From the UHGV virus genome UHGV-0812067: 17,252 nt of DNA; one strand, given 5' to 3'. Positions within the stretch are counted from its first letter, which is position 1. Each line of letters begins with the position of its first letter. A model generated the notes under the pieces. It worked only from the letters and a program-made list of their open reading frames with translations. It had not been told where the DNA came from and ran no database searches. The stretch comes from a virus. The position numbers and the translations under genes were made by a program. This document shows, piece by piece, positions 573 to 17,252 of this stretch.

Positions 573-1901
573 ATGACGTGGAAAGACAGGCTTCAGGATG
601 CGTCATTTCGCGGCGTACCGTTTAAGGTTGAAGAAGAAAGTGCGGGAACCGGTCGCCGTGTGGAAACACACGAATATCCGAACCGCGACAAGCCCTATAC
701 CGAAGATCTGGGAAAAGTCACTTTCCGCCCGTCCATCACAGCTTATGTGGTGGGAGATGACTGCTTTGACCAGCGCGATCGCCTGATTGACGCGCTGAAT
801 AAACCCGGTCCCGGCACGCTTGTCCACCCGACATATGGTGAGCTGAAAGTCTGTGTTGACGGGGAAGTTCGGGTCAGCACATCGAAAAGTGAAGGGCGTA
901 TTGTCCGCTTTGACCTGAAGTTTGTCGAAGCGGGAGAACTCTCTTACCCCACATCAGGTGCGGCGACGGCGCAGACGCTGATGTCATCCTGTTCTGCACT
1001 GGATGACTGCATCAGTGACAGCTTCAGCGGTTTCAGTATCGATGGTGTGGCGGATTTCGTGCAGAACGACGTTATCGGTAATGCCAGCATAATGCTGGGG
1101 TATGTTTCTGATGCGATGAAAGTGGTGGATTCTGCCGTATCGGATGCCGCCAGGCTGTTGCAGGGGGATATCTCGGTACTTCTGCCGCCGCCATCGTCAG
1201 GCAAAAATTTCGTTGAGCAGGTGCAGAAAATGTGGCGTACCGGGAAACGCCTTTATGGTAACGCCAGCGACCTGGTCACCATGATCAAAACGCTTTCCGG
1301 TGTCAGCCTCGGCAGCGATCTGCAACCGCGCGGCATCTGGAAAACGGACAGTAAAACCACCGCCACGGCGACGCAGCAGCGTAACGTGGTTGCCAGCACC
1401 CTTCGTACGACCGCAATCAGCGAAGCGGCGTATGCCGTCACCCGATTGCCTGCGCCAACAACTTCCGCGGTGATGCAGAATGCCGCAGTGGGGCAGGCAA
1501 CAACACCTGCGCAGAGCACTGGCTGGCCTTCCGTCACGCATCCGGCACTGAACAATGCACCGGCGGTGAAAAACACGGTTGACCTGCCGACGTGGGAAGA
1601 ACTGACTGACATTCGCGACACACTGAATACGGCAATTGATAAGGAGTTGTCCCGTACAACCAGTGATGCGCTGTTTCTGGCGCTGCGCCGGGTGAAAGCA
1701 GATCTGAATGCGGATATCAACACGCGCCTTGAACAGTCTGCACGGATCATTCAGCGCACACCGGATGAGGTTTTACCCGCGCTGGTGCTGGCGGCGACCT
1801 GGTTTGATAACGCGGCGCGTGACGCGGACATTATCCGGCGTAATGCCATTACGCATCCCGGCTTTGTGCCGGTGATCCCTCTGAAGGTGCCAGTGCAATG
1901 A
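573..1901 (+). CDS. Mu gp43 (N)-like DNA circulation protein / tail-baseplate-associated protein
   Basis: ATG at 573 preceded by GGAG (564-567). N-terminus MTWKDRLQDASFRGVPFKV... is typical of the Mu-type DNA circulation protein N-terminal domain. Stop overlaps the next start (ATGA at 1898-1901). Confidence 0.8.
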   Translation: MTWKDRLQDASFRGVPFKVEEESAGTGRRVETHEYPNRDKPYTEDLGKVTFRPSITAYVVGDDCFDQRDRLIDALNKPGPGTLVHPTYGELKVCVDGEVRVSTSKSEGRIVRFDLKFVEAGELSYPTSGAATAQTLMSSCSALDDCISDSFSGFSIDGVADFVQNDVIGNASIMLGYVSDAMKVVDSAVSDAARLLQGDISVLLPPPSSGKNFVEQVQKMWRTGKRLYGNASDLVTMIKTLSGVSLGSDLQPRGIWKTDSKTTATATQQRNVVASTLRTTAISEAAYAVTRLPAPTTSAVMQNAAVGQATTPAQSTGWPSVTHPALNNAPAVKNTVDLPTWEELTDIRDTLNTAIDKELSRTTSDALFLALRRVKADLNADINTRLEQSARIIQRTPDEVLPALVLAATWFDNAARDADIIRRNAITHPGFVPVIPLKVPVQ

Positions 1902-2977
1902 ACGACAATGTCACGCTACGGATAAATGGCCGGGAGTGGAATGGCTGGACATCGGTGCGCATCGGTGCCGGTATTGAACGGCTGGCGCGGGATTTCAGTG
2001 TGGAGATCACCCGCCAGTGGCCGGGAGATGAGGGTATTACCACGCTTCAGCCGCGCATTAAAAACGGTTCAAAAGTGGAGGTGCTGATTGGTGATGAGCT
2101 GGTGATCACCGGCTGGGTGGAGGCGACGCCCGTTCGTTACGATGCCCGTTCGGTCAGCACCGGTATTGCCGGACGCAGTCTGACCGCTGACTTGATTGAC
2201 TGTGCAGCCGAACCGACACAGTTTAACGGACGATCGCTGGTACAGATTGCGCAGGCGCTTGCTGCGCCTTTCGGCATTGAGGTGGTGAACAACGGTGCGC
2301 CGTCGGGTGTTATTCCTGATGTCCAGCCTGATCACGGTGAAACGGTGATTGAGGTAATCAACAAAATACTCGGTCAGCAGCAGGCACTGGCTTACGACGA
2401 CCCGCACGGCAGGCTGGTGATTGGCGGTATTGGCTCAACGCGGGCACATACTGCGCTGGTACTCGGGGAAAACATCCTTTCCTGCGATACGGAGAAGAGT
2501 ATCCGGGAGCGGTTTTCTGTTTACCAGGTGGCGGGGCAGCGTGCCGGAAACGACGATGATTTCGGTGAGGCCACCACCACCGCGCTGCGGGCCCGCACAG
2601 AGGACGCATTTATTGCCCGTTACCGTCCGATGTATATCAGGCAGACAGGGCAGGCTACGGGGGCAGGCTGTATTGCCCGTGCGGACTTTGAAGCCCGACA
2701 ACGGGCGGCGCGGACGGATGAAACCACCTATGTGGTGCAGGGCTGGCGACAGGGTAACGGTACGCTGTGGCAGCCCAACCAGCGGGTGATTGTCTTTGAT
2801 CCGGTCTGTGGTTTCGACAATACCGAACTGCTTGTTTCGGAAGTCACGTTTACTCAGGACCAGAACGGCACCCTGACGGAAATCCGTGTCGGCCCGCCTG
2901 ATGCTTATCTGCCTGAACCCGAAGCCCCCGGCGCGCGGAAAAAGAAAAAAGCCAGAGTACAGGAGGACCCGTTCTGA
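1898..2977 (+). CDS. Mu gp44 (P)-like baseplate hub protein
   Basis: 359-aa ORF coupled to neighbours by overlapping stop/start. Position and size match the Mu/P2 gpD-type hub in the conserved baseplate gene order. Confidence 0.75.
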   Translation: MNDNVTLRINGREWNGWTSVRIGAGIERLARDFSVEITRQWPGDEGITTLQPRIKNGSKVEVLIGDELVITGWVEATPVRYDARSVSTGIAGRSLTADLIDCAAEPTQFNGRSLVQIAQALAAPFGIEVVNNGAPSGVIPDVQPDHGETVIEVINKILGQQQALAYDDPHGRLVIGGIGSTRAHTALVLGENILSCDTEKSIRERFSVYQVAGQRAGNDDDFGEATTTALRARTEDAFIARYRPMYIRQTGQATGAGCIARADFEARQRAARTDETTYVVQGWRQGNGTLWQPNQRVIVFDPVCGFDNTELLVSEVTFTQDQNGTLTEIRVGPPDAYLPEPEAPGARKKKKARVQEDPF

Positions 2978-3525
2978 TGAAGGCGATTGAAACCATACAG
3001 CGACAACTCCTCGGCCTGATTGGGCGGGCGGTGGTGAAAAGCATCAGTGCCGCCACGAAATGTCAGACCGTGGATGTGTCCCTGATTGCCGGTGAACCCA
3101 AAGCCGGGGTTGAACATCTTGAACCCTACGGTTTTACCGCAAGGGCAAACAGCGGTGCGGAAGCGGTGGTGTTGTTTCCGGATGGCGACCGTTCTCATGC
3201 GGTGGTTGTTACGGTGTCGGACCGGCGCTACCGCCTGAAAGGGCTGCAGACGGGTGAGGTGGCTGTCTATGACGATCAGGGGCAGTCCGTGACGCTGGCC
3301 CGGGAGGGGATCGTGGTGGACGGTGCAGGTAAAACGATCACGTTTCGCAATGCGCCTAAGGCACGTTTTGAAATGGACCTGGAAGTGACCGGACAGGTGA
3401 AAGACCTGTGCGACTCCACCGGCACCACCATGTCAGCGATGCGGCTTGCCTATAACGGGCATCGTCACAGAGAGAACGGTCAGGGCAGTAACACCGACAA
3501 ACCTGATAAAGTGATGGAGGCATGA
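2977..3525 (+). CDS. Mu gp45 / gpV-like baseplate spike protein
   Basis: 182-aa ORF with AGGAGGA upstream (2961-2967) and start overlapping the upstream stop. Sequence and size are typical of phage baseplate assembly protein V. Confidence 0.75.
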   Translation: MKAIETIQRQLLGLIGRAVVKSISAATKCQTVDVSLIAGEPKAGVEHLEPYGFTARANSGAEAVVLFPDGDRSHAVVVTVSDRRYRLKGLQTGEVAVYDDQGQSVTLAREGIVVDGAGKTITFRNAPKARFEMDLEVTGQVKDLCDSTGTTMSAMRLAYNGHRHRENGQGSNTDKPDKVMEA

Positions 3526-3950
3526 TGGAACTGTGGCTGACGGTGAACGGTAAACGCACCTGCGCCAGCGCACAACTGGATCCGCTGACCCGCGCCGTGG
3601 TGATTTCCCTGTTTACCTGGCGGCGGGCGGAGCCTGATGACAACGCCGAAGTCCCGATGGGATGGTGGGGGGATACCTGGCCTGCGGTACAGAATGACCG
3701 TTACGGCTCCCGACTGTGGCTGCTTCAGCGCAGCAAACTGACCAATCAGCTGGTGCAGACGGTAAGGGGGTATATCCGCGAATGCCTGCAATGGATGATT
3801 GATGACGGCGTGGTGTCCCGTATTGATCTGGATATCCGCCGCACCGGGATTAATGAACTGGGTAACAGTATCACTCTCTGGCGTCGTGACGGACCGGTAA
3901 TGATTTCTTTTGATGATCTGTGGAGTGCGATAACGCATGGCGGACAGTGA
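3525..3950 (+). CDS. Mu gp46 / gpW-like baseplate wedge protein
   Basis: ORF track starts at 3522 (ATGATG); the second ATG at 3525 has better spacing from GGAGG (3516-3520). About 140 aa, consistent with the GP46/gpW family by position and size. Confidence 0.7.
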   Translation: MELWLTVNGKRTCASAQLDPLTRAVVISLFTWRRAEPDDNAEVPMGWWGDTWPAVQNDRYGSRLWLLQRSKLTNQLVQTVRGYIRECLQWMIDDGVVSRIDLDIRRTGINELGNSITLWRRDGPVMISFDDLWSAITHGGQ

Positions 3951-4995
3951 ATTTCAGCGCCCGACGCTGGCAGAAAATATCAGTATGCTCCGTAACGATT
4001 TATTCGCCAGGCTGGACGTCAGCGACACGCTCCGGCGCATGGATGAAGACGTGCGGGCAAAGGTGTATGCGGCGGCGCTGCATACGGTTTACGGTTACAT
4101 CGATTATCTGGCAATGAACATGCTGCCTGATCTGTGCGATGAGTCCTGGCTGGCGCGACATGCTGCGATGAAACGGTGTCCGCGCAAGGGGGCCACGGCT
4201 GCCAGCGGGTATATGCGCTGGGAAGGTGTCAGCGATGGCCTGAAGGTGACCGCCGGGAGTGTTATTCAGCGCGATGACCTGGTTCAGTACACGGCAACTG
4301 CCGATGCAACCAGCACTGGTGGTGTCCTGCGTGTGCCGATCACTTGCTCAACTACAGGCGCGGTCGGTAACGCTGACGACGGTACGGCATTAATCCTGGT
4401 CACACCGGTGAATGGTCTGCCGTCTTCCGGTGTGGCTGACACCCTGACAGGCGGATTTGATACTGAAGAGCTGGAAACGTGGCGCGCCCGCGTCATTGAG
4501 CGGTATTACTGGACGCCTCAGGGCGGGGCTGACGGGGACTATGTCGTCTGGGCTAAAGAAGTGCCCGGCATTACCCGCGCATGGACATACCGTCACTGGA
4601 TGGGAACGGGAACTGTCGGTGTGATGATTGCCAGCAGTGACCTGATTAATCCCATTCCGGAAGAATCAACGGAAACGGCAGCAAGACAACATATCGGGCC
4701 ACTGGCCCCGGTGGCAGGCTCTGATTTGTATGTATTCAGGCCGGTGGCACATACGGTGGATTTTCATATCCGCGTGACGCCGGACACACCGGAAATACGG
4801 GCTGCCATTACCGCGGAGTTGCGTTCGTTCCTGCTGCGTGATGGTTATCCGCAGGGAGAACTGAAGGTATCGCGTATCAGTGAAGCGATTTCCGGTGCGA
4901 ACGGGGAATACAGCCATCAGTTGCTTGCACCGGTGGACAATATCTCCATTGCAAAAAATGAACTGGCGGTACTGGGGACGATTTCATGGACGTGA
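3937..4995 (+). CDS. Mu gp47 / baseplate J-like protein
   Basis: 352-aa ORF overlapping the upstream gene by 14 nt. Size and position match baseplate J-like wedge proteins (gpJ of P2, gp47 of Mu, JayE of e14). Confidence 0.8.
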
Positions 4996-5570
4996 CAAAC
5001 GATGATTACATCCGTCTGTTGTCGGCACTGTTGCCCCCCGGTCCGGCGTGGTCAGCCAGCGATCCGGCGATTGCCGGTGCGGCACCGTCATTAACCCGCG
5101 TTCATCAGCGTGCGGATGCCCTGATGCGGGAGCTGGATCCGCGCACCACCACCGAACTGATAAATCGCTGGGAGCGTCTGTGCGGCCTGCCGGATGAATG
5201 TATTCCGGCGGGAACGCAGACCCTTCGCCAGCGTCAGCAACGACTGGATGCGAAGGTTAACCTGGCGGGCGGCATCAACGAGGATTTTTATCTTGCACAG
5301 CTTGCTGCCCTGGGCAGACCAGACGCTACCATCACGCGATACGACAAAAGCACGTTCATCTGCTCATCTGCCTGTACTGACGCGGTGAATGCGCCGGAAT
5401 GGCGGTATTACTGGCAGGTCAACATGCCAGCCGCCACCAACACCACCTGGATGACATGTGGCGATCCCTGTGATTCCGCGCTGCGTATCTGGGGCGACAC
5501 CGTTGTCGAGTGTGTGCTTAACAAACTCTGCCCGTCGCATACCTACGTAATTTTTAAATATCCGGAGTAA
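4986..5570 (+). CDS. Mu gp48 / gpI-like tail protein (YmfQ/DUF2313-type)
   Basis: 194-aa ORF overlapping the upstream gene by 10 nt and lying immediately upstream of the tail-fibre gene, as in Mu/P2/e14-type modules. Confidence 0.75.
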
Positions 5571-5573
5571 TCC

Positions 5574-6536
5574 ATGCATCGTATAGACACGAAAACCGCG
5601 CAGAAGGATAAGTTCGGCGCGGGTAAGAACGGTTTTACCCGTGGTAACCCCCAGACCGGCACACCTGCCACCGATCTGGATGATGACTACTTTGACATGT
5701 TGCAGGAAGAACTTTGTAGCGTGGTGGAGGCCTCCGGTGCCAGCCTGGAGAAAGGGCGGCATGACCAGCTGCTTACCGCACTTCGTGCGCTGCTGTTAAG
5801 CCGCAAGAATCCGTTTGGCGATATCAAATCGGACGGCACGGTGGAAACGGCTCTCGAAAACCTTGGTTTGGGAGATGCCAACGGATATGTGGGCCGAAAG
5901 GTTGCGGAAAAATGGATAACGACATCTGGGACATATACGCCTACACCGGGAACAAAAAAAATCAGGGTAACGATAATTGGCGGAGGCGGCGGCGGGGGCA
6001 GTGGGCAAACAAACTCTGCTGGATACGTATCTGCCGGGTCTGGTGGAGGTGCCGGTGGTGTGGCTCGTAAAACAATTGACGTTACCAGTGTTTCATCAGT
6101 GTCCGTAACCATCGGTTCAGGCGGTAATCCAGGTGTCTTCTCTTCAAATCAGCCTGGTGATGGTGGTACCACAAGTTTTGGCTCCTACATGACAGCTGGC
6201 GGGGGTGGCCGAGGAAATAACTGTGGCTCGGTAGCATTCGGTGTTACTCAGTTAATTGCGAACGGTGGCGGCGGGGTTGGTTCAGGAGGTGATATCAACA
6301 CCATCGGCGGCTCTGGCGGCCCGGCGATAATTCTGGGACAGGGGTACACCAGCGGCGGCGGTGGCAACTCAATAGTAGCTGGAGGTGGACAGCCTATTGC
6401 AACAACGTCATCAATGAGTGGAATTGATGGCTCATATGGTTCTGGTGGGTCAGGCGCTTACATTCTGGCCAGCGGTAGTGAAAAAAATGGCGGACGTGGT
6501 GGTGATGGCGTTTGTATCGTTGAGGAGTATGCATAA
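5574..6536 (+). CDS. tail fibre protein, expressed form in this orientation (constant N-terminus + glycine-rich variable C-terminus)
   Basis: ATG at 5574 with GGAG (5563-5566). N-terminus [40 protein letters not shown]... is the conserved phage tail-fibre N-terminal domain. From about residue 98 the protein is extremely Gly/Ser-rich. The inversion crossover site lies inside the gene at 5851-5876. Confidence 0.85.
5851..5876. repeat. invertase crossover site, left (gix/cix/pix/hix-like, 12-2-12 layout)
   Basis: ctctcgaaaacc tt ggtttgggagat: two half-sites resembling the invertase half-site consensus (..TC..AAACC) around a central TT. The 11 bp ttggtttggga (5863-5873) is the exact reverse complement of 7677-7687. 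Confidence 0.7.
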
Positions 6537-6943
6537 TGAATAACATTTATGCTGTTGTTGAAAATGGCGTGGTGATCAACATCGTCGTCTGGGATGGGAA
6601 ATCGGAATGGCAACCGGTAACTGGGGAGGCTGTTTCTTGTTCTGCTCAGGTTGGTATCGGCTGGTTGTATGATGGAAGTAATTTCACCCAGCCACCAACA
6701 CCCGAGCAGACTCCAGAAGAATTAGCAGCGGCAAACATGGCTAAAGCTGCATCTGAGTATGAACGTGCCAGCGTAGTCATTGTAGCGCTAAATGAGCAGA
6801 TCGAAGACGAGGACTACGCAGGGACTACGGAAGAGGCCGTGAAATCAGAATTGGCCGCATGGACTGACTATCGTAAACAGCTTCGCGCTTACATTAAGGC
6901 CGGGGATGGCAGCCAGACACTACCATCCTTTGTAATGATTTAA
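6536..6943 (+). CDS. tail fibre assembly/chaperone-like protein for the current fibre form
   Basis: ATG overlaps the fibre stop (TAATG at 6534-6538) with GAGGAG upstream (6522-6527). C-terminus ...AWTDYRKQLRAYIKA resembles the Tfa C-terminal W-x-x-YR motif. The N-terminal part is not classic Tfa. Confidence 0.55.
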   Translation: MNNIYAVVENGVVINIVVWDGKSEWQPVTGEAVSCSAQVGIGWLYDGSNFTQPPTPEQTPEELAAANMAKAASEYERASVVIVALNEQIEDEDYAGTTEEAVKSELAAWTDYRKQLRAYIKAGDGSQTLPSFVMI

Positions 6944-7323
6944 ACTGGTCGTGTAGGCCACTCTATATCGGGAGCCGTGCTGGTATCAGTTCGCATCACG
7001 GCAACCCGATAATCTTCCCACGAGGTTAATCTAGCAGCTTCTTCATCAGTCGCTATTCCTGCGGTTACTGCATATTGAAGAGGTGATATTGCAAAAGTTG
7101 CTGCCGCCAGCAGCTCTGCTTTTTTCTGATTTGCAATCGCTACTTGCTGATCATGAGTCAGTGGCGCAGGGTCGCTCAGTTCGGGAAAACCACTTTCGTT
7201 TGCAATAATTACCTTTCCTCCCGCCTGCCCAATCACCAATTCTGACCAGTAGTCGTCGGTAATCTCCACCTGGCTATCACTCATCCGCCCAACCGTAAAT
7301 CCAATCTCTGTGGAATAAAACAT
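6940..7323 (-). CDS. tail fibre assembly protein (Tfa), alternative-orientation copy
   Basis: C-terminus ...ATDEEAARLTSWEDYRVAVMRTDTSTAPDIEWPTRPV matches the conserved Tfa C-terminal motif. Its stop codon overlaps the convergent + strand stop within TTTAAA (6940-6943). Confidence 0.8.
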   Translation of the reverse strand: MFYSTEIGFTVGRMSDSQVEITDDYWSELVIGQAGGKVIIANESGFPELSDPAPLTHDQQVAIANQKKAELLAAATFAISPLQYAVTAGIATDEEAARLTSWEDYRVAVMRTDTSTAPDIEWPTRPV

Positions 7324-7685
7324 TACGCACTCCCCATAGCCATATATTTAAAAGAAAAAGATCCGTTCAGATTTGCCCCTGCGGCATCCTTTCCGTAAAT
7401 TGTCACAACCGAACCTGATTCAGGAATGGCGGCATAACTAACAACGCCTGAGCCAATATCAGTCGGGATAAAAGTAAAACCAGTGCTGGGGTAAGCCAAT
7501 GGAAGAGTAAAGCTCAGTACGCCGTTAACAAAATTTCCAGATCCACTGCCCTCCATTATTCTACGGTTTCCTGCAATCACTATTGAAGTAAATACGTTTG
7601 AAGCGCCAGCGTATGTGAAGTTTGACATGTCTGGAATTTGACCAGTTCCTGTACCCACATCTTTTTTGGCTGCTGTTCCCAAACC
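7323..7685 (-). CDS. silent alternative tail-fibre C-terminal segment (Sv'-like), lacks its own N-terminus in this orientation
   Basis: Minus-strand frame is open from the stop at 7692-7694 through the crossover site to TAA at 7323-7325. It reads ...KVGLGTAAKKDVGTGTGQ..., with GLG encoded by the same ggtttggga as NLGLGD in the + fibre, in the same frame. The TTG 'start' in the ORF track is probably not a real start. Confidence 0.65.
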   Translation of the reverse strand, partial: GLGTAAKKDVGTGTGQIPDMSNFTYAGASNVFTSIVIAGNRRIMEGSGSGNFVNGVLSFTLPLAYPSTGFTFIPTDIGSGVVSYAAIPESGSVVTIYGKDAAGANLNGSFSFKYMAMGSA

Positions 7686-7699
7686 AACCTTTCAAATAT
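7674..7699. repeat. invertase crossover site, right
   Basis: tgttcccaaacc aa cctttcaaatat: the left half-site matches the half-site consensus well, the right half is degenerate. It carries the 11-bp inverted repeat tcccaaaccaa (7677-7687). Confidence 0.65.
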
Positions 7700-8465: not shown

Positions 8466-8714
8466 TTAGTGAACAAACCACTCGTCAGCAGATTCCCAGG
8501 TATCTTTCAGAGTCTCCTGAACAAAAGTTTTTGCAGAATCCTTATCTGCGGTGCGTGTAACAGAAAGGCCATCGTTGCTGGTGGCTTTTACGATCACCTC
8601 TACATCGTCATAACGTTTACTGATGCGTCGGGTTAATTCTTCCTTTAACGCATCCACAGCACCGGTTGGCATTTTAGTCATTTTTTCTTTGGCTATGCAG
8701 ATTTCAATACGCAT
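8466..8714 (-). CDS. dinI: DinI-family (DNA damage-inducible protein I-like) protein
   Basis: 82 aa, [11 protein letters not shown]...AVDALKEEL...[11 protein letters not shown], closely resembling the DinI pattern (MRIEVTIAK...ETWESADDWF). SD-like GAGGGA precedes the start; LexA-box-like palindromes lie upstream. Confidence 0.85.
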
Positions 8715-8727: not shown

Positions 8728-8747
8728 TACTGTGTTTGTATACAGTA
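8728..8747. promoter_or_regulatory. LexA (SOS) box 1
   Basis: TACTGTGTTTGTATACAGTA, a perfect CTGT-N8-ACAG palindrome matching the consensus TACTG(TA)5CAGTA, located 14 bp upstream of the dinI-like start codon. Confidence 0.75.
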
Positions 8748-8755
8748 TTATTTTT

Positions 8756-9892: not shown

Positions 9893-9929
9893 GGGTTCCC
9901 ATAAAACGTGGGAACCTGTGCGGGAACCT
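9893..9929. repeat. cluster of GGGAACC(T) motifs upstream of the integrase gene (candidate arm-type or regulatory binding sites)
   Basis: gggttccc (9893-9900, inverted), gggaacct (9910-9917) and gggaacct (9922-9929), lying 20-56 bp upstream of the integrase start. Confidence 0.45.
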
Positions 9930-10105
9930 AATGCGAGAAAAATAGCCTGAAATGTTCAAAAATGCACGATAATCATGAAACACAAAAAATTAATCAAACC
10001 AGCGTGATGCCTGAAAAAACTGGTGTTTACTGGAATTCTCGGTTTAGCATTGCTCCTATGCTCGATAGGATGTACCGTTTTTGAAAAACAAGTAGTTATA
10101 CACTT

Positions 10106-10129
10106 TGTGGGAGCCTATTGGGAACCTGT
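10106..10129. repeat. second cluster of GGGA(A/G)CCT motifs
   Basis: gtgggagcct (10107-10116) and ttgggaacctgt (10118-10129); the latter repeats 9909-9919 (tgggaacctgt). It lies about 200 bp from the first cluster across an AT-rich spacer. Confidence 0.45.
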
Positions 10130-10319: not shown

Positions 10320-10892
10320 ATGTTTTGCGAAGAAAAAGTAGCTCAAATGGCTGCATACCTACTTCTTAAGAGAGGTGGGCGCATGGCATATCTGAAATTG
10401 ATGAAGCTGCTCTATCTGTCTAACCGCCAGTCGATTTTGAAGCATGGCAGGATGATCGGCGAAGATAGCCTTTACTCTATGAAATTTGGACCAGTCATGT
10501 CGAATACGCTGAACTTGATTCGCGGTAAGGCTGAAGGCATTGGTGACTACTGGTACAACTTGATAGAGACGAACGGGCATAATGTATCGTTGCGTTCAGA
10601 TCCGAGGGAAATGGATGCAGACGAGGTCTTTGATGAATTGAGTCGTGCAGATATCCGGATTTTAGATGAAATCTATTCTCGGTATGGGCATATGAACCGA
10701 TTTGATCTCGCAAATATGACGCATTTAGAAAGCGTTTGTCCAGAGTGGCACGATCCTGGCAATTCTCGTAAGCCTATAGACCTGAAAGAAATGCTGATCA
10801 GTGAGGGTAAAAGCGAGGATGAGGCTAATCGCATAATTGGCAAAATGGAAGAATCTCAGAAACTTAAGGAATTTTCTTTGCAATTATCATGA
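10320..10892 (+). CDS. Panacea-domain (DUF4065, PanA/SocA/GepA-like) protein, putative antitoxin or sensor component
   Basis: ATG at 10320 with GAGG (10308-10311, 8-nt spacer). Residues about 20-70 (...AYLKLMKLLYLSNRQSILKHGRMIGEDSLYSMKFGPVMSNT...) fit the Panacea signature (KLqKLLYL ... w/y-GPV). Coding DNA is low-GC relative to flanking phage genes. Confidence 0.75.
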   Translation: MFCEEKVAQMAAYLLLKRGGRMAYLKLMKLLYLSNRQSILKHGRMIGEDSLYSMKFGPVMSNTLNLIRGKAEGIGDYWYNLIETNGHNVSLRSDPREMDADEVFDELSRADIRILDEIYSRYGHMNRFDLANMTHLESVCPEWHDPGNSRKPIDLKEMLISEGKSEDEANRIIGKMEESQKLKEFSLQLS

Positions 10893-11308
10893 CGGATTAT
10901 CAGCCATACAGGAAAGGAACTGTGCTTGCCCCAACTGGACCATGCAATCATCTTCATGTGATTTGTAATGATCCTGTTTATTACCCCGTTAACGATTGTT
11001 ATTGTGTTTTAGTTGTTAATATTTCTAGTATCAAGGATGGTGTCCCCCACGATCCGTCTTGCGTCTTGAATTCTGGTGATCATCGCTTTATCAAGCATCC
11101 AAGTTATGTTGTTTACGCTGAAGCTATAATTTGGCGAGTGGATAACATGGTTAGAAAGCAGCGATCGGGTGAGATTTCTGTTCATGATGATATGCCAGAA
11201 GCTACATTCAATAGAATTCTGGACGGTTTTGATATCTCTGATGAAGTTACGCCAAAGAACCTTAAATTTAAAAATAAATATTGCGTATCATCTATTGATG
11301 ATGAGTAA
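10889..11308 (+). CDS. hypothetical 139-aa protein translationally coupled to the Panacea-domain gene, candidate toxin/effector
   Basis: ATGA overlap at 10889-10892 with the upstream stop. Protein MTDYQPYRKGTVLAPTGPCNHLHVICNDPVYYPVNDCYC... has Cys/His-rich motifs and I recognise no family. Lowest GC in the window. Confidence 0.65.
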   Translation: MTDYQPYRKGTVLAPTGPCNHLHVICNDPVYYPVNDCYCVLVVNISSIKDGVPHDPSCVLNSGDHRFIKHPSYVVYAEAIIWRVDNMVRKQRSGEISVHDDMPEATFNRILDGFDISDEVTPKNLKFKNKYCVSSIDDE

Positions 11309-11347: not shown

Positions 11348-11521
11348 ATGGAAGATCAAAAAGCAACCAAGCCACAGGTTAAGTTCGACACAATGAAAGC
11401 ATTCGCAGGTATGGGTGCTGCTGTTGAAGTTCTGATGAAGGCTGCTCCTAACGCGTTCACTCACGCTATTGTCTCTGGTAAAGAGCAGCAGGGTAAGCTT
11501 CGTCGTCGCAAGGCAGCATGA
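11348..11521 (+). CDS. small 57-aa protein of unknown function (not in the ORF track, below its length cut-off)
   Basis: Hand translation: MEDQKATKPQVKFDTMKAFAGMGAAVEVLMKAAPNAFTHAIVSGKEQQGKLRRRKAA. GGAG (11338-11341) lies 6 nt before the ATG, and a strong intrinsic terminator follows 22 bp after the stop. Codon choice looks like a well-expressed enterobacterial gene. Confidence 0.5.
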   Translation: MEDQKATKPQVKFDTMKAFAGMGAAVEVLMKAAPNAFTHAIVSGKEQQGKLRRRKAA

Positions 11522-11543
11522 TCATAGCTGGTGCTTTTTGAAA

Positions 11544-11573
11544 GCCCGCCATCTGGCGGGTTTTTCTTTTTTA
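11544..11573 (+). terminator. rho-independent terminator
   Basis: gcccgcc-atct-ggcgggt GC-rich stem followed by tttttctttttt. Confidence 0.75.
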
Positions 11574-11585: not shown

Positions 11586-11858
11586 TCAACTATTTTTCTG
11601 TTTGTTCGTTCTGACCCTTTCCCATTCAATTCTGCCTTCTTCACGCCGCTGGTCTATATACTCAGCAAGATCCTGAATGTTGATACAGCGCTTCGCTTTC
11701 TGTGATGTTCCTACACGGTAAGTCGGGATCGGCAACTGACAGGCATTTGCTTTCGCTTCTGCTGTGTTAGGGCTCATACCGAAATACTTTTGGCATACCG
11801 CTGACAGCTCGATGTTAGGCGTGTTGAACTCAGCCATAAGTAAAAACAAAGTATTCAT
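11586..11858 (-). CDS. PrtN-family (pyocin activator-like) small DNA-binding protein; possible regulator or recombination directionality factor
   Basis: 90 aa, MNTLFLLMAEFNTPNIELSAVCQKYFGMSPNTAEAKANACQLPIPTYRVGTSQKA..., the characteristic N-terminus of PrtN-like proteins common in enterobacterial prophages. GGAG lies 7 nt upstream of the ATG. Confidence 0.7.
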   Translation of the reverse strand: MNTLFLLMAEFNTPNIELSAVCQKYFGMSPNTAEAKANACQLPIPTYRVGTSQKAKRCINIQDLAEYIDQRREEGRIEWERVRTNKQKNS

Positions 11859-12469: not shown

Positions 12470-12470
12470 G

Positions 12471-12914
12471 TTAAATATTCTCCTGTTTTGGTGCTGCTTT
12501 AAGCATTGCGGCGCGGCAGGCGTTCCATCCCCTGACTTCAGCGATTGCAGCTACAGCGTCTATGGCATGCATTTTCGACGCCTCTGGCATCGGTTTTTCA
12601 TCCGGCACTACTGGCGCTGACTGCGGGGCGGCCCAGAGCTTATTGACGCCATCCGGCAGATTATTAAAATCAAACGTACTGCCCGGAATCCTGCCAGCCT
12701 GAATCCTGTCGTCTCCGTCAATCTCGATGAAAAATACTGGCTCTGCGTTCCTCGATGCTAGCACCTCATCAATCACATTCAACATATCACCGAGAATGTA
12801 TGCTCTGTTCCCGCCGTTTGAGTACTGGGTATCATGTTGCAGGTGCTCGCGTATCTGGTGCAGGCGATCGACAGATACAGGACCGTTCACCGGGTGGTTT
12901 GTGCTTTTAGTCAT
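12471..12914 (-). CDS. hypothetical early-region protein
   Basis: ORF track extends to 12968 from a non-ATG codon. I prefer the ATG at 12914 (MTKSTNHPV...), which has GGAGG 6 nt upstream and overlaps the upstream stop (ATGACTAA). Confidence 0.55.
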   Translation of the reverse strand: MTKSTNHPVNGPVSVDRLHQIREHLQHDTQYSNGGNRAYILGDMLNVIDEVLASRNAEPVFFIEIDGDDRIQAGRIPGSTFDFNNLPDGVNKLWAAPQSAPVVPDEKPMPEASKMHAIDAVAAIAEVRGWNACRAAMLKAAPKQENI

Positions 12915-13251
12915 TCCATGCCTCCAGCTCGTTCTGGATTTCCTCGTCGACCTCGTCATTTGTGGCATCTTCGTTCAGATAGTCGCGCGCCTCTTTGAGA
13001 TACTGTTCACGGCGTTCGTGGTACCAGGCAGAGAACTCCGGCGACCACCCTCGATTAGCCCCCTGAAAATCTACCATCGCATTATCCTCTGCCATACGCT
13101 CGACCATGCAGTCGGCAGTTGTCAGGGCGCATTCCCGGATGTAACTGCGAAGGTGGTGCTTACGCCAGTACGGACTGTATTTTGAATCGCAGCGGCTTTT
13201 AAATTCGACAGTCCAGCGACGGATGCAACGTGCGTTCAGTGATTTACTCAT
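12907..13251 (-). CDS. hypothetical early-region protein (acidic C-terminus)
   Basis: 114 aa. GGGAG lies 7 nt upstream of the ATG at 13251, which overlaps the upstream stop as ATGA. Confidence 0.55.
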   Translation of the reverse strand: MSKSLNARCIRRWTVEFKSRCDSKYSPYWRKHHLRSYIRECALTTADCMVERMAEDNAMVDFQGANRGWSPEFSAWYHERREQYLKEARDYLNEDATNDEVDEEIQNELEAWND

Positions 13252-13502
13252 TGTGTTGCTCCCTGTCTGGCTCTATTCAATAACTGGTTAAACATCATGG
13301 TTAGGCTGTTACTGCACCCAAATGGCATATCGTTAACACGGTATGTTGGAATGCCCTTGCGAACACCAGACTTCACGATCCTGCCAGTGGTAAAGAGTTG
13401 CGATAACGAACCAGCGATCGAAGCTGTTTTTTTGTTTAAACCCTTAGCTATTTCAGCGCTGGTGGCGTTGGGGTGAGCCTGGAGATATTCAAATACGGTC
13501 AT
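13248..13502 (-). CDS. small putative winged-helix DNA-binding protein
   Basis: 84 aa. N-terminus ...HPNATSAEIAKGLNKKTASIAGSLSQLFTTGRIV... looks like a wHTH fold; this is inference from the sequence pattern only. ATGA-coupled on both sides. Confidence 0.5.
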   Translation of the reverse strand: MTVFEYLQAHPNATSAEIAKGLNKKTASIAGSLSQLFTTGRIVKSGVRKGIPTYRVNDMPFGCSNSLTMMFNQLLNRARQGATQ

Positions 13503-13666
13503 GGCGTTTTACCTTTACGTTCCTGTTCCAGTTGCACCAGAGACTCTTTTAATGCTGCGAACGTAGCTTCCAGTCTGGTGGCGACTTCGCTCATAAGCGG
13601 TGCATGCTTTGGTGGCAATTCAGCAACGGAGGAAAAAGCCTCCGCTACGAGTTCTTTTACCTTCAT
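13499..13666 (-). CDS. small 55-aa hypothetical protein (not in the ORF track)
   Basis: Hand translation on the minus strand: MKVKELVAEAFSSVAELPPKHAPLMSEVATRLEATFAALKESLVQLEQERKGKTP. Its ATG overlaps the HD gene stop (ATGA) and its TGA overlaps the next ATG (ATGA). Confidence 0.45.
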   Translation of the reverse strand: MKVKELVAEAFSSVAELPPKHAPLMSEVATRLEATFAALKESLVQLEQERKGKTP

Positions 13667-14202
13667 GCGGCGCATTGGCGCTGCTCCATCAACTCGTTAA
13701 AGCGATTGATGAACATGCCGTATGACTGGCCAGGACGAACTGGGTTGATAATGAATAAATCCGTTGGGACAACTCCCTCGAGGCATGGCCAAATGGAACC
13801 TTCGTCAATCTCAAAATCGCGGCGTTCGCTGGCGAGCATCACCAGGTCGGCATATTTCACGGTTGGGTGTTGCTCAGTTGGTAGACCGAACTTCTGCCGA
13901 ATGGCTGCGTCCACACGAGCTTCGATTGCCTGGTAATCCGGAAGCAGGCGCTTAAGTGGGGAGGGGATGTCCTGCAGGTAGGCTTCAGCAGCATCATGAA
14001 GCAGTGCTTCTAATGCAAACTCCTGCGGAACGAGGTGGCTGGTTAAAACGCTATGCTGGCCGACACTGTAAAACTCAGGAAGATGCCCTGCAAAGCGGCA
14101 GATATGAGACAACGCGGTAGCAATATCCTCGATCACGATATCGTCCTGTTGGATATCGAGGTAATTAAAATGTTTGCCGGATAATGTCTGAATGTAGCTC
14201 AT
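13663..14202 (-). CDS. HD-domain phosphohydrolase
   Basis: H...HD signature (...ALSHICRFAGH...LLHDAAEAY...). I prefer the ATG at 14202 (MSYIQ...), which has GGAG 6 nt upstream, over the track's GTG at 14229. Confidence 0.75.
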   Translation of the reverse strand: MSYIQTLSGKHFNYLDIQQDDIVIEDIATALSHICRFAGHLPEFYSVGQHSVLTSHLVPQEFALEALLHDAAEAYLQDIPSPLKRLLPDYQAIEARVDAAIRQKFGLPTEQHPTVKYADLVMLASERRDFEIDEGSIWPCLEGVVPTDLFIINPVRPGQSYGMFINRFNELMEQRQCAA

Positions 14203-14310
14203 GGTTTTCTCCATATTGGCGCGCTGCACCGCGCCATTAAATTAATGAATTGCTGAATTTAGCGTGCAGCAACCCAACCCATGCTTATGGGGGTAATTGT
14301 TGCCTGGTGT

Positions 14311-15228
14311 TTATCGCTTGGCTTCGCCGCCGAGAGAGGTTGTTAATCCGTTAATGAGAGAGATAAGCTCGCCGGTCATCAGAACAAAGTCAGCGTCGAA
14401 CCGCTGAGCCGCATCCTCACGGTCGATATCGTCGTTTTGTTCTGTAATCTCATTAGAGAACTTAAGGCGTTTGATGCTGCCGTCATCGCAAAGAACGAAC
14501 TGAATGCGCTGTTGCCAGTCGATAGACAGCTTTGTAACTACTTTGCCAGCTTCCAGATGCACATGAATTTCGTCACTGACCAGAGTCTGTTTTTTAAAGC
14601 GTCCAATACCGCCATCTTCAAGAATAGCTTTCAGTTCGGCTTCATCACCCAGGCCAAAGCCAGCAGGCGCACTACCGGAACGAACCCATTCGGTCATAGT
14701 TAGTTCGATCGGCGTTTCCATAGTCAGCGGTACCACCGGGAGAGAACCGAGAGTTTTACGAAGCAGGGCCAGTGAGTCTTCGGCACGTTTAGCGCTGGCT
14801 GCATCAACCATGATCAGACCGTCGGTGACGTTGATCCACAAACTAACAGTCGAGTTTTTGGAGAACGCCCGAGGAAGCAGGGAGTGCAACACTTCATCAC
14901 GCAGCGAATCTTTCTCAGTTTTTTTGAGGCGACGCCCCTGATCGGATTCCAGACGCGACACACGCTTGCGCAGTTCTTCAGCAATGACAGGAGATGGCAG
15001 TATTTTTTCTTCCCGGCGAATAACCAACAACACTTGATTATTGACAGTGTGATGCAAGCGATCTGACAGCTGACCAAGTGGTGATACCCAACCGGTTTTT
15101 GCCATATCCTGGCTACCGCATGGAGTGAAGCGAAATAGTTCAAGCTGCTGTTCCAGCTCTTCCTGGTTGATGGTGAAATCGCGACTAATGCGATACACCA
15201 ACATATTTTTGAAAAACGGATTGTTCAT
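14311..15228 (-). CDS. rdgC: RdgC-family recombination-associated protein, phage-encoded homologue
   Basis: 305 aa, [18 protein letters not shown]...[19 protein letters not shown]...KILPSPVI...[22 protein letters not shown]...LGSLPVVPL...RLKF..., collinear with E. coli RdgC along its whole length. Confidence 0.9.
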
Positions 15229-16365: not shown

Positions 16366-17019
16366 TCAAAAATCCATTATTACTTGTTTGACAAGACCAA
16401 CTATTCTGCAGTTCTCACCGCATTCAATAGTTTTATAGTTAGGATTTAGTGGGACGAGATACCTGTTCGGCCAGTCCTCAACAAATTTTTTGAGTGTCGC
16501 TTCTTGCCCACCATTGATATGGGCAACAACGATTTTTCCGTTAATACACTCTGTATCAATAATATCTGGCTCTACGATAACGATAGAACCTTCTGGTATC
16601 GATGGTGAGCCGAGGGGATTGGTCATTGAATCACCACGGACCCGTAGTGCAAATGCCATTTCTGATACAAGGGCGGTAGTATAAACCCACTCTTCAGCAT
16701 CTTCTTTCCTGACACCAGGCTCCGTCATTGTCCATGAACCCGCCTGAACCCACGAGATGAGGGGGACTTTTTTAACTGCGAATATTTCAGGTTTTAGATT
16801 TATCTTTGGTTCAGGCGAGCCTTTTCCGCTAACAAGCCACAGAGGATCGCATTTAAGTGCGTTGGCTAGGGCTTGAAGGTTGGCTCCATTTGGTTGGTAG
16901 TCGTCCTTTTCCCATCCAGTAACCGTGACACGGTTCACACCAGTCAAATCAGCCAGTGCTTGTTGTGTCAGGTTCAGTTCTTTTCGCCTTTGGCGAATAC
17001 GATCACTCATGTTCATCAT
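16366..17019 (-). CDS. CI-like phage repressor (N-terminal HTH + C-terminal LexA/S24-type autocleavage domain)
   Basis: 217 aa. N-terminal HTH (RIRQRRKELNLTQQALADLTGVNRVTVTGWEKD); C-terminal S24 peptidase features (...ALRVRGDSMTNP... with a downstream Lys). No strong SD, as is common for repressor genes. Confidence 0.9.
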   Translation of the reverse strand: MMNMSDRIRQRRKELNLTQQALADLTGVNRVTVTGWEKDDYQPNGANLQALANALKCDPLWLVSGKGSPEPKINLKPEIFAVKKVPLISWVQAGSWTMTEPGVRKEDAEEWVYTTALVSEMAFALRVRGDSMTNPLGSPSIPEGSIVIVEPDIIDTECINGKIVVAHINGGQEATLKKFVEDWPNRYLVPLNPNYKTIECGENCRIVGLVKQVIMDF

Positions 17020-17083
17020 GTAGGCAATCCTACCACATGCCCATGTAGGATTCTTGACATTGGTATGTTGGATATCCTACATT
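17018..17083 (+). promoter_or_regulatory. rightward operator/promoter region (OR/PR-like) between the repressor and Cro-like genes
   Basis: TTGACA (17054-17059), 18-bp spacer, TACATT (17078-17083). Operator atgttggatatcctacat (17065-17082) is 17/18 identical to the left operator. A related site atgtaggcaatcctacca (17018-17035) overlaps the repressor start codon, and there is a half-site atgtaggat (17043-17051). Confidence 0.65.
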
Positions 17084-17114
17084 TCTGCTTAACGTAATTT
17101 AACGGGAGACAGAA

Positions 17115-17252
17115 ATGCGGAAATCCGACGTGATTAATTATTTCGGCGGAGTTTGTAAAACCGCCGAAGCCCTAGGTATTAAGCATCCGTCTGTTTCAGA
17201 GTGGCCTGAGATTATTCCTGAAGGCCGAGCGTACCAGTTAGAAAAAATTACT
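17115..17252 (+). CDS. Cro-like small HTH regulator (3'-truncated by window edge)
   Basis: ATG at 17115 with GGGAG 6 nt upstream. Hand translation MRKSDVINYFGGVCKTAEALGIKHPSVSEWPEIIPEGRAYQLEKIT... resembles Cro/YdaS-type HTH proteins. It is divergent from the repressor gene. Confidence 0.6.
   Translation, partial: MRKSDVINYFGGVCKTAEALGIKHPSVSEWPEIIPEGRAYQLEKIT

What the first reader, a model, noticed from the sequence alone, without database searches (positions are those of the whole stretch)
573..17252. Hybrid organisation: Mu/e14-type contractile-tail module joined to lambdoid integrase and immunity functions in vegetative gene order
Tail genes run directly into invertase, dinI and integrase, then early genes and the cI-cro region, with no host sequence in between. 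This is the circular phage map order (tail, pin, int, early, immunity), not the order expected at the end of an integrated prophage, where int would border host DNA. Together with the candidate attP next to int, this suggests the window comes from a phage genome, an excised form, or a rearranged element.
Basis: inference. Interest (0 to 1): 0.35.

Follow-up and report, generated by a model that had tools for sequence, protein, structure and literature searches.

The report
SfV-like phage segment spanning attP
The window is an ordinary piece of a well-known kind of temperate E. coli phage (Mu-type contractile tail, lambda-type control genes) read across its attachment site in the circular phage order; the phage inserts into the host dusA gene.

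Summary
Mu-type baseplate and tail genes run into an invertible tail-fibre segment, a Pin-like invertase, dinI and a tyrosine integrase. Leftward early genes and a cI/cro immunity region follow, with no host gene in between.

The candidate attP is real. A four-way attP/attB/attL/attR alignment places the crossover at ATGCTCGA (10058-10065). This lies inside a phage-borne substitute 5' end of dusA (9962-10084), flanked by GGGARCCT arm-type repeats. In hundreds of E. coli chromosomes the left half of the window ends exactly at 10065 next to dusA. The right half starts at 10066 at the other prophage end. So the window is in the circular (vegetative) permutation.

None of this is new:
- "SfV-like" lambdoid myoviruses are a described group.
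- The integrase, attP and PrtN-type excisionase (RdfN) module is the described dusA-specific system, tested experimentally in a 96%-identical Stx phage.
- Phage SKA5 has the same order.

The physical source is unresolved. A virion genome or excised circle is most likely. However, two E. coli chromosomes carry tandem prophages with the same internal attP junction.

Novelty: already known. Interest: low.

The parts
9..482 (+). Low-GC ORF (33% GC) between the tape-measure gene and the DNA-circulation gene. Its 5' end is cut by the window start. Function unknown.
   Evidence: phrog_8976, E 1.5e-97, unknown function. No Pfam, NCBIfam or PADLOC hit. GC. Annotated homologues in SKA5 and strain 19-5 start just upstream of the window.
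573..1901 (+). DNA-circulation protein (Mu N/gp43 type).
   Evidence: PF07157, E 2.9e-34. 97-98% nt identity to SfV, SfI, SfII and SfIV.
1898..2977 (+). Baseplate hub (Mu P/gp44 type).
   Evidence: PF22255, PF21683 and PF21929.
2977..3525 (+). Baseplate assembly protein (Mu gp45 type).
   Evidence: PF06890, E 1.5e-24.
3522..3950 (+). Mu gp46-type baseplate protein.
   Evidence: PF07409, E 7.9e-33.
3937..4995 (+). Baseplate J / Mu gp47.
   Evidence: PF04865, E 5e-53. Window 4208-5875 is 97% identical to e14 jayE-ymfQ-stfP.
4986..5570 (+). Mu gp48 / YmfQ.
   Evidence: PF10076, E 9.4e-27.
5574..6536 (+). Tail fibre in the orientation shown. The first 100 residues are constant and lie upstream of the crossover point at 5863-5864. 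The glycine-rich C-terminal part is variable.
   Evidence: PF21722. Similarity to the SfV group stops at about 5875. Inversion simulation.
5851..5878 (.). Left crossover site of the invertible segment: CTCTCGAAAACC TT GGTTTGGGAGATGC.
   Evidence: Inverted repeat 5858-5873 / 7677-7692, 88% complementary. Sequence.
5865..7685 (.). Invertible tail-fibre segment of about 1.8 kb (Mu G / e14 P type).
   Evidence: Simulated inversion fuses the constant 100 residues in frame to a 217-aa alternative fibre, followed by its own Caudo_TAP assembly gene.
6536..6943 (+). Probable tail-fibre assembly protein for the fibre form shown.
   Evidence: Position only, plus a weak PF02413 hit (E 0.024, below the cut-off).
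6940..7323 (-). Tail-fibre assembly protein for the alternative fibre.
   Evidence: PF02413 Caudo_TAP, E 9.7e-32.
7323..7685 (-). Alternative tail-fibre C-terminal part. It has no start codon of its own.
   Evidence: ORF list. In-frame fusion after simulated inversion.
7671..7698 (.). Right crossover site: TGCTGTTCCCAAACC AA CCTTTCAAATA.
7759..8322 (+). Serine DNA invertase (Pin/Gin/Hin family).
   Evidence: PF00239 E 3.3e-36 and PF02796. 56% identical to e14 PinE.
8466..8714 (-). DinI-like protein.
   Evidence: PF06183, E 1.1e-19.
8730..8773 (.). Two LexA-box-like palindromes (CTGT-N8-ACAG) over a promoter-like site upstream of dinI.
   Evidence: 2 matches against 0.23 expected; 3 of 200 shuffles reach 2. 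Promoter-like TTGACA-18-AAAAAT on the minus strand at 8779-8750.
8776..9873 (-). Tyrosine integrase, dusA-specific. It lies on the tail side of attP and is transcribed away from it.
   Evidence: PF00589. In lysogens it lies next to dusA and divergent from it. 96-98% nt identical to the integrases of phi1720a-02, mEp460 and several Stx phages. No significant similarity to e14 IntE; 22% over the catalytic domain to SfV Int.
9893..9929 (.). attP P-arm repeats: GGGTTCCC at 9893, GGGAACCT at 9910 and 9922. Presumed arm-type integrase binding sites.
   Evidence: GGGARCCT occurs 5 times in the window against 0.79 expected, and 4 of these flank the core. The AttP R primer of PMC6328086 matches 9893-9912 exactly.
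9962..10084 (+). Phage-borne substitute 5' end of dusA (40 codons plus stop in the attP state). On integration it replaces the host 5' end in frame.
   Evidence: Alignment A1. Annotated as a 123-nt 'tRNA-dihydrouridine' CDS in SKA5. Full-length 1038-nt hybrid dusA in lysogens.
10058..10065 (.). Crossover core ATGCTCGA, identical in attP, attB, attL and attR.
   Evidence: Alignment A1. Chromosomal matches end at 10065 and prophage left ends begin at 10066.
10109..10127 (.). attP P'-arm repeats (GGGAGCCT, GGGAACCT). This is also the right-hand end of the exchangeable dinI-int-attP cassette.
   Evidence: Similarity to mEp460, CT01 and L010 stops at 10126.
10320..10892 (+). Panacea-domain (PanA-type) antitoxin. 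It sits in the variable cargo slot between attP and rdfN.
   Evidence: PF13274, E 2.2e-19. Relatives carry different cargo in this slot.
10889..11308 (+). Probable toxin partner with a MazF/PemK-like fold. It overlaps the antitoxin gene by 4 nt.
   Evidence: No family hit. AlphaFold2 mean pLDDT 90.4. The top 50 PDB matches are all MazF-type toxins, best E 4.2e-3, TM 0.48/0.60.
11348..11521 (+). Small conserved ORF of unknown function.
   Evidence: phrog_2741, E 2.6e-35.
11540..11565 (+). Terminator-like hairpin with a T-run, closing the rightward cargo cassette.
   Evidence: sequence.
11586..11858 (-). PrtN-domain excisionase (RdfN type). It is the last gene of the leftward early operon, across attP from int.
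   Evidence: PF11112 E 3.2e-24. phrog_1300 'excisionase' E 3.2e-40. RdfN was shown to be the directionality factor of dusA integrases in PMC8409611.
11897..12469 (-). 3'-5' exonuclease (Rv2179c-like).
   Evidence: PF16473, E 2.3e-74.
12471..14229 (-). Leftward early genes, mostly of unknown function. The block ends with the YfdR-like gene at 13663-14229.
   Evidence: PHROG hits. A weak PF12917 hit below the cut-off. Mosaic map.
14311..15228 (-). RdgC homologue.
   Evidence: PF04381, E 8.2e-116.
16366..17019 (-). CI-type repressor (HTH plus S24 self-cleaving domain).
   Evidence: PF00717 and PF01381. 35% identical to e14 YmfK over the C-terminal two-thirds of the protein (146 aligned residues). 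99.5-99.9% nt identical to SKA5, CT02 and CT01.
17018..17082 (.). Operator-like palindromes (ATGTAGG-N-CCTACAT type) between cI and cro.
   Evidence: sequence.
17115..17252 (+). cro (YdaS/Cro family), cut by the window end.
   Evidence: Sequence. Matches the start of the annotated 198-nt Cro/CI gene in CT02 and CT01.

Best explanation
The window is a 17-kb internal stretch of a temperate SfV-like phage, meaning a lambdoid genome layout with a Mu-type contractile tail. It is read across attP in the circular (vegetative) permutation.

Shown:
- It carries its own substitute dusA 5' end and upstream region.
- In the prophage, int (with dinI, pin and the tail genes) ends up at the dusA-proximal end. 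The cargo slot, rdfN, the early genes and cI/cro end up at the other end.

Inferred for this phage from experiments on relatives:
- The integrase alone integrates the phage.
- Integrase plus the PrtN-type RdfN excises it.

Inference only: rdfN is the last gene of the cI-repressed leftward operon, so SOS cleavage of the S24 repressor would supply RdfN, while int has its own promoter in the 90 bp between int and dusA'.

The tail-fibre segment 5865-7685 is flipped by the Pin-like invertase to switch between two receptor-binding ends.

The DNA most likely came from a phage genome or an excised circle.
For: Gene content.

attP:
- In the four-way alignment, attP equals attR on the left of the core and attL on the right of it. 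attB shows the reverse pattern.
- GGGARCCT arm repeats are enriched: 5 against 0.79 expected.
- 742 of 5426 complete E. coli genomes hold the cassette. Only 4 records hold an intact attP; in the rest the matches are attR and/or attL pieces, and the attR piece stops at 10065.
- Whole single prophages bounded by dusA' and dusA contain both the lambdoid and the Mu-type modules.
- A prophage left end starts at 10066 with the same Panacea gene, PrtN gene and early genes.

The same order is seen in free or circular form:
- Phage SKA5: 97% identity over 73% of the window, and contiguous across attP.
- The 43.7-kb circular replicon of strain CT01, which also holds the integrated copy.
- IMG/VR contig L011.

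Literature:
- PMC6328086: phi1720a-02, 96% identical over 8468-10065, inserts 100 bp into dusA, and Int is needed to form attP. Two of its primers match the window exactly.
- PMC4482086 describes the dusA-associated integrases.
- PMC8409611 shows RdfN is the directionality factor and lies across attP from int.
- PMC3603311 and PMC3636060 describe SfV-like phages as lambdoid myoviruses.

Inversion.
Against: - Nothing beyond the window could be examined. The source contig was not found in any collection, so a virion or circle origin is not proven.
- Two chromosomes carry the same kind of internal attP in tandem arrays.
- No experiment exists for this exact phage.
- The int promoter was not detected by the simple consensus scan.
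- The regulatory chain from cI to pL to rdfN is inferred from gene order only.
Confidence: 0.9

Rival explanations
1. The window comes from a bacterial chromosome that carries two prophages in head-to-tail tandem at dusA. The attP seen here would be the internal junction of the array, not a free phage genome or an excised circle.
For: - The E. coli GPEC620-622 chromosome holds attL, copy 1, attP, copy 2, attR and dusA, with identical protein accessions in both copies of an SfV-like prophage.
- The GPEC1352 chromosome holds an intact attP between a lambda-type tail with int and an early region.
- So 2 of the 5 attP-type junctions seen in complete E. coli assemblies are chromosomal.
Against: - Such arrays are rare. 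With the 247-bp probe, 1 of 742 genomes carrying the cassette has one.
- Phage genomes (SKA5, mEp460) and three circular replicons show the same junction.
- Both tandem cases are from one sequencing project, and concatemer reads could create them.
- Even if true, the gene order and the mechanism are unchanged.
Confidence: 0.17
2. The two halves belong to two different phages joined at a shared att site (heterologous tandem lysogens or a chimeric assembly). On this view the Mu-tail / lambdoid-immunity hybrid is an artefact of the junction.
For: - The dinI-int-attP cassette is shared by unrelated phage types. These include the mEp460 siphovirus, Stx phages and a lambda-type prophage in GPEC1352.
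- Different phages can therefore occupy the same site side by side.
Against: - Single prophages bounded by attL and attR (strain 19-5) and the isolated phage SKA5 contain both modules in one genome. SKA5 has 98-99.5% identity to both ends of the window.
- The hybrid architecture is the published definition of SfV-like phages (PMC3603311).
Confidence: 0.04
3. The element is a rearranged or defective remnant, e14-like, in which deletion has brought tail, int and early genes together.
For: - Deleted remnants exist at dusA. In strain CT02, cro is fused directly to a truncated baseplate gene.
- e14 itself is a remnant.
Against: - No truncated gene or novel joint is visible in the window. All ORFs are full length and collinear with SKA5 and with intact prophages.
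- The junction at 10058-10065 is a precise attP, not a deletion joint.
Confidence: 0.03

Closest known systems
Escherichia phage SKA5 (OR670062.1)
   Same: - Same gene order from the tail through pin, dinI, int, dusA' (attP), the Panacea pair, the PrtN gene and the exonuclease to cI/cro.
- 97% identity over 73% of the window, contiguous across attP.
   Different: - The variable part of the tail fibre (5879-7676) is unrelated.
- The early genes 12469-15337 are unrelated or only 67% identical.
SfV-like lambdoid myoviruses (SfV, SfI, SfII, SfIV)
   Same: - Mu-type baseplate and tail module, 97-98% identical over about 546-5875.
- Lambdoid early and immunity layout.
- Described as 'lambdoid with a Myoviridae tail' (PMC3603311, PMC3636060).
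   Different: - In the Shigella phages gtr O-antigen genes sit next to attP.
- They use an adjacent int-xis pair on the early side of attP and insert at tRNA-thrW.
- They have no invertible fibre or invertase.
- SfV Int is only 22% identical to the window integrase, over the catalytic domain.
Cryptic prophage e14 of E. coli K-12
   Same: - jayE-ymfQ-stfP is 97% identical to 4208-5875.
- Invertible fibre segment with a Pin invertase (56% identical).
- cI/cro/ymfL-type immunity region.
   Different: - e14 is a 15-kb remnant at icd with a lambda-style intE-xisE pair.
- IntE shows no significant similarity to the window integrase.
dusA-specific integrase / RdfN recombination modules (Farrugia 2015; Durand 2021; phi1720a-02, Balasubramanian 2019; mEp460)
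   Same: - Integration about 100 nt into dusA, with an element-supplied replacement 5' end.
- int divergent from dusA.
- The PrtN-domain directionality factor lies on the other side of attP.
- 96-98% nt identity to the phi1720a-02 and mEp460 cassettes (PMC4482086, PMC8409611, PMC6328086).
   Different: Here the module sits in an SfV-like myovirus, not in a siphovirus, an Stx phage or a mobilisable island. Sequence relatedness to the Acinetobacter prototype integrase was not tested.
Mu G segment / P1 C segment (Gin, Cin) host-range switches
   Same: - A constant fibre N-terminus fused to either of two C-terminal parts, each with its own assembly gene.
- The switch is made by a serine invertase acting at inverted sites with an AAACC-NN-GGTTT core.
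   Different: - The fibre sequences are unrelated.
- The outer half of the right-hand site is degenerate.
- A Fis-dependent enhancer was not examined.

Membership tests
SfV-like lambdoid myoviruses | Mu-type contractile-tail and baseplate genes | tested here: met
   Pfam families for Mu N, P, gp45, gp46, gp47 and gp48. 97-98% nt identity to SfV, SfI, SfII and SfIV.
SfV-like lambdoid myoviruses | Lambdoid early/immunity layout: divergent cI (S24 repressor) and cro with operators, and a leftward early operon | tested here: met
   Collinear with the SfV cI-cro region.
SfV-like lambdoid myoviruses | HK97-type head genes, P27-type terminase and Q-type late control in the rest of the genome | not testable with these tools
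   These lie outside the window. They are present in the related full prophages and circles.
dusA-specific integrase (DAI) / RdfN elements | Tyrosine recombinase gene next to and divergent from dusA in the integrated state | tested here: met
   PF00589. int is 88 bp from dusA and divergent in strains 19-5, CT02 and GPEC620-622.
dusA-specific integrase (DAI) / RdfN elements | [quoted passage not shown] | tested here: met
   Alignment A1: core at 10058-10065, which is nt 97-104 of dusA. Full-length 1038-nt hybrid dusA in lysogens.
dusA-specific integrase (DAI) / RdfN elements | PrtN-domain directionality factor (RdfN) located across attP from int | tested here: met
   PF11112 and phrog_1300 at 11586-11858. 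Arrangement as described in PMC8409611. Function not tested for this protein.
dusA-specific integrase (DAI) / RdfN elements | Sequence relatedness to the prototype DAI (A. baumannii D1279779) and match to the 21-bp att consensus logo | not tested
   Neither the prototype sequence nor the logo was available as text. PMC6328086 reports the 21-bp motif for the 96%-identical phi1720a-02 cassette.
   int (8776-9873) is on the tail side of attP. The excisionase gene (11586-11858) is on the other side, 1.5 kb from the core. There is no significant similarity to e14 IntE.
Din-family invertible tail-fibre switch (Gin/Cin/Pin/Hin) | Small serine recombinase with a resolvase catalytic domain and a C-terminal HTH | tested here: met
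   PF00239 and PF02796. 56% identical to PinE.
Din-family invertible tail-fibre switch (Gin/Cin/Pin/Hin) | Inverted crossover sites flanking a segment that carries two alternative fibre C-termini with their assembly genes | tested here: met
   Inverted repeat 5858-5873 / 7677-7692. In-frame alternative fibre after simulated inversion.
Din-family invertible tail-fibre switch (Gin/Cin/Pin/Hin) | Fis-dependent recombinational enhancer; actual inversion in vivo | not tested
   No enhancer scan was done and no read data were available.
PanA (Panacea) toxin-antitoxin pairs (side item) | Panacea-domain antitoxin gene next to a toxin gene in one operon | tested here: inconclusive
   PF13274 in 10320-10892. 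The overlapping partner has a MazF-like predicted fold, but only at E about 4e-3 and TM 0.5-0.6. Toxicity not testable.

The most novel reading that the evidence does not exclude
Durand et al. (PMC8409611) left open what drives rdfN expression and excision in prophage-type dusA elements. The layout here suggests an answer.
- rdfN is the promoter-distal gene of the cI-repressed leftward early operon, so it would be supplied only after SOS cleavage of the S24 repressor.
- int is physically uncoupled from that operon in the prophage, because attP separates them. It would run from its own promoter, which lies among the arm-type sites.

Separately, the attP-rdfN cargo slot carries a Panacea antitoxin paired with an unclassified MazF-fold toxin family.
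Probability: 0.45. Interest if true: 0.25.

Novelty: already known. Interest (0 to 1): 0.1.

Why it matters
It matters little beyond correct annotation. The result places the window in a known phage group, fixes attP to 8 bp, and defines the prophage ends to expect in lysogens: int next to dusA, and the cargo slot next to the displaced dusA 5' fragment.

Three practical points follow:
- An attP-order contig of this family does not by itself prove a free phage, because tandem lysogens contain the same junction.
- About 14% of complete E. coli genomes (742 of 5426) carry this att cassette, so it is a common integration module exchanged between myo- and siphovirus backbones.
- The slot between attP and rdfN is a variable cargo site worth scanning for toxin-antitoxin or defence genes.

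Tried and rejected
1. Searches for the source contig, to read its flanks, all failed.
- No record in the phage, plasmid or E. coli collections covers 80% or more of the window.
- A unique 50-mer hit only an 87%-similar IMG/VR contig.
- A 90-mer across attP hit nothing in the species-representative genomes.
- The same 90-mer hit one IMG/VR contig and one 5.9-kb metagenome contig. Both diverge from the window after 10170.

2. Two chromosomal hits that looked contiguous across attP were checked.
- CT02 is a deleted remnant whose pieces the tool had joined. It is not in vegetative order.
- GPEC620-622 is a genuine tandem dimer. This became the main rival explanation.

3. A lambda-type int-xis module was rejected.

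4. PADLOC, NCBIfam and relaxed Pfam scans gave nothing for the toxin partner, for ORF 9-482 or for several early genes.

5. The AttP F primer of PMC6328086 does not match within 3 mismatches. The window diverges from phi1720a-02 beyond about 10127, which is the end of the shared cassette.

6. The simple promoter scan found no consensus promoter for int in 9874-9961.

7. Allison et al. 2002 (the SfV genome paper) is not held in the library. It is cited only through PMC3603311 and PMC3636060.

Full report
**What is in the window**

ORF listing and family searches give one continuous phage map.

On the + strand:
- A low-GC ORF (9-482).
- Homologues of Mu N, P, gp45, gp46, gp47 and gp48 (573-5570).
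- A tail fibre (5574-6536) with an assembly gene.

Then follow a second assembly gene and a start-less fibre C-terminus on the - strand (6940-7685), and a serine invertase (7759-8322, +).

On the - strand come dinI (8466-8714) and a tyrosine integrase (8776-9873). After a 446-bp gap there is a rightward cassette:
- A Panacea antitoxin (10320-10892).
- An overlapping 139-aa partner (10889-11308).
- A small ORF and a terminator-like hairpin.

The leftward early genes then run from 15574 down to 11586. They include RdgC, a YfdR-like protein and a 3'-5' exonuclease, and end in a PrtN-domain excisionase (11586-11858). Last come a repressor with HTH and S24 domains (16366-17019, -), operator-like palindromes (17018-17082) and the start of cro (17115).

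There are no tRNAs and no host genes. GC falls from 0.53-0.60 in the tail genes to 0.40-0.45 around int and attP, as expected for a mosaic. Phage DNA in fact starts at base 36, not at 573.

**The attachment site**

Many E. coli chromosomes match the window from 36 to exactly 10065 and then stop. In strain 19-5 that end lies next to dusA, and int is 88 bp from dusA and divergent from it.

The whole 19-5 prophage is bounded on the other side by a displaced 105-nt dusA 5' fragment. It contains lambdoid early, immunity and lysis genes, an HK97-type head, a Mu-type tail, pin, dinI and int.

I aligned the window's 9860-10330 with empty dusA from K-12 and with the two 19-5 junctions.
- The window equals attR to the left of ATGCTCGA (10058-10065) and attL to the right of it.
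- K-12 attB shows the reverse pattern.

The crossover lies at nucleotides 97-104 of dusA. The phage carries its own 40-codon dusA' start (9962-10084) and upstream region, so the lysogen keeps a full-length 1038-nt dusA.

Four GGGARCCT repeats and one inverted copy flank the core (9893-9929 and 10109-10127). The motif occurs 5 times in the window against 0.79 expected, and no shuffle of 200 reached 5. This is the usual arm-site architecture of an attP.

A prophage in strain ARL09/232 starts exactly at window position 10066, next to the displaced dusA fragment. It carries the same Panacea gene, PrtN gene and early genes.

**Is the window in vegetative order, and what does that say about its source?**

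Both halves of the window are the two opposite ends of dusA prophages, joined at a precise attP. I probed 5426 complete E. coli genomes with a 247-bp segment across attP.
- 742 genomes carry the cassette.
- All but four records hold it only in split form, as attR and/or attL pieces. The attR piece ends at 10065.
- Three of the four intact copies are small circular replicons (43,680, 43,671 and 37,667 bp).
- The CT01 replicon is a complete phage genome, and the same strain also carries the integrated copy. It is therefore an excised circle assembled as a "plasmid".

Phage SKA5 has the same order, contiguous across attP. So does one IMG/VR contig with a Mu-type tail.

The fourth intact copy is chromosomal (GPEC1352). 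A second chromosome, GPEC620-622, holds a head-to-tail dimer of one SfV-like prophage: attL, copy 1, attP, copy 2, attR, dusA.

So the vegetative junction most likely reflects a phage genome or an excised circle, but a tandem lysogen is a real alternative, which I put at about 17%. I could not find the source contig to settle this.

The idea that the two halves belong to two different phages is unlikely. SKA5 and single prophages contain both modules in one genome.

**How it works**

The integration module is the described dusA-specific system.
- Farrugia et al. (PMC4482086) defined dusA-associated integrases. These elements replace the dusA 5' end, and 64% of them carry a prtN homologue.
- Durand et al. 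(PMC8409611) showed that the PrtN-domain protein RdfN is the directionality factor needed, together with Int, for excision. They also noted that int and rdfN lie on opposite sides of attP.
- Balasubramanian et al. (PMC6328086) studied the Stx phage phi1720a-02, whose cassette is 96% identical to 8468-10065. It inserts 100 bp into dusA at a short conserved core, and Int is required to regenerate attP.
- Their AttP R primer and a library primer match the window exactly, at 9893-9912 and 10026-10057.

By inference, in this phage Int integrates at dusA, and Int plus the product of 11586-11858 excises.

Gene order suggests, but does not show, how the two genes are controlled. rdfN would be delivered from the cI-controlled leftward operon after SOS cleavage of the repressor. 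int would have its own promoter in the 90-bp int-dusA' spacer. The simple scan found no consensus promoter there.

The cassette from dinI through int to attP (about 8361-10126) behaves as an exchangeable unit.
- It is 98% identical in the lambdoid siphovirus mEp460 and is present in several Stx phages.
- The 1.2 kb between attP and rdfN is variable cargo in relatives.

**The invertible fibre**

Similarity to the SfV group stops at about 5875. An inverted repeat (5858-5873 / 7677-7692) with an AAACC-NN-GGTTT core brackets a 1.8-kb segment.

Simulated inversion of 5865-7685 keeps the first 100 fibre residues. It fuses them in frame to a different 117-residue end, followed by a Caudo_TAP assembly gene. 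The invertase is 56% identical to e14 PinE. This is the Mu G / e14 P type of host-range switch.

**Comparison with what is known**

[quoted passage not shown] SfI is described as a mosaic of SfV/e14 morphogenesis genes and lambda-type early genes (PMC3636060).

The window differs from the Shigella members in two ways:
- It has the invertible fibre, pin and dinI where they carry gtr genes.
- It uses the dusA module instead of the thrW-specific adjacent int-xis pair.

It differs from e14 in the integrase, since there is no significant similarity to IntE, and in the insertion site. The lambda arrangement of int and xis is not met.

**Verdict**

- The architecture is a known one.
- The integrase is dusA-specific and lies on the tail side of attP.
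- Host junctions in other isolates confirm attP rather than refute it.
- A tandem lysogen is an additional possible source.

Novelty: already known. Interest: about 0.1.

**Side observations**

- The Panacea partner (10889-11308) has no family assignment. Its model is confident (pLDDT 90.4), and the top 50 PDB matches are all MazF-type toxins at modest scores.
- Two LexA-box palindromes overlie a promoter-like site upstream of dinI.
- A 33%-GC ORF of unknown function sits inside the tail operon.

Noticed in passing
window 10320-11308: A Panacea-domain antitoxin gene overlaps by 4 nt a 139-aa gene with no Pfam, NCBIfam or PADLOC family. 62 homologues were found, among them Enterobacterales, Vibrio and Shewanella proteins, with invariant His and Cys residues. 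The AlphaFold2 model (pLDDT 90.4) matches only MazF/PemK toxins in the PDB (best E 4e-3, TM 0.5-0.6). This is probably a PanA-neutralised MazF-fold toxin of an unclassified family.
   Followed up: partly
window 10127-11334; compare L003 8294-9337, L006 34062-34965, L019 17764-18754: The slot between the attP P' arm and rdfN holds different cargo in each relative: another Panacea pair, a YafO-family toxin with a partner, or unrelated hypothetical genes. It looks like a hot spot for toxin-antitoxin or accessory genes.
   Followed up: partly
window 8730-8773: Two CTGT-N8-ACAG LexA-box-like palindromes overlap a promoter-like site between int and dinI. This suggests dinI is SOS-controlled from its own promoter.
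   Followed up: partly
window 9-482: An ORF at 33% GC is inserted between the tape-measure gene and the DNA-circulation gene (both 53-60% GC). It is absent from SfV and present in SKA5 and many prophages. It belongs to phrog_8976, of unknown function, and may be a moron inside the tail operon.
   Followed up: no
L019/L020/L021 (E. coli GPEC620-622 chromosome, 4,223,000-4,301,400): A chromosome-level assembly carries two identical copies of an SfV-like dusA prophage in head-to-tail tandem, with an internal attP. It could be a real double lysogen or an artefact of concatemer reads.
   Followed up: partly
L006 (E. coli CT01 'plasmid unnamed3', 43,671 bp) and L017: A replicon deposited as a plasmid is the excised circular form of a dusA prophage that is also integrated in the same strain's chromosome. 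AH02 has an equivalent replicon (43,680 bp) and CX04 a related one (37,667 bp).
   Followed up: yes
L006 26636-31957: In the CT01/AH02 phage the invertible fibre segment and invertase are replaced by an acyltransferase, a GIY-YIG protein and a type II restriction-modification pair. So the region between the fibre genes and dinI is a second cargo slot.
   Followed up: no
L005 21059-21838 (E. coli CT02 chromosome): A 15-kb dusA prophage remnant in which cro is followed directly by a truncated baseplate gene. This is an e14-like decay product of the same phage family.
   Followed up: partly
window 14311-15228 and 11897-12469: The leftward early operon encodes a full-length RdgC homologue and an Rv2179c-like 3'-5' exonuclease, in the position where lambda carries its exo, bet and gam genes.
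   Followed up: no
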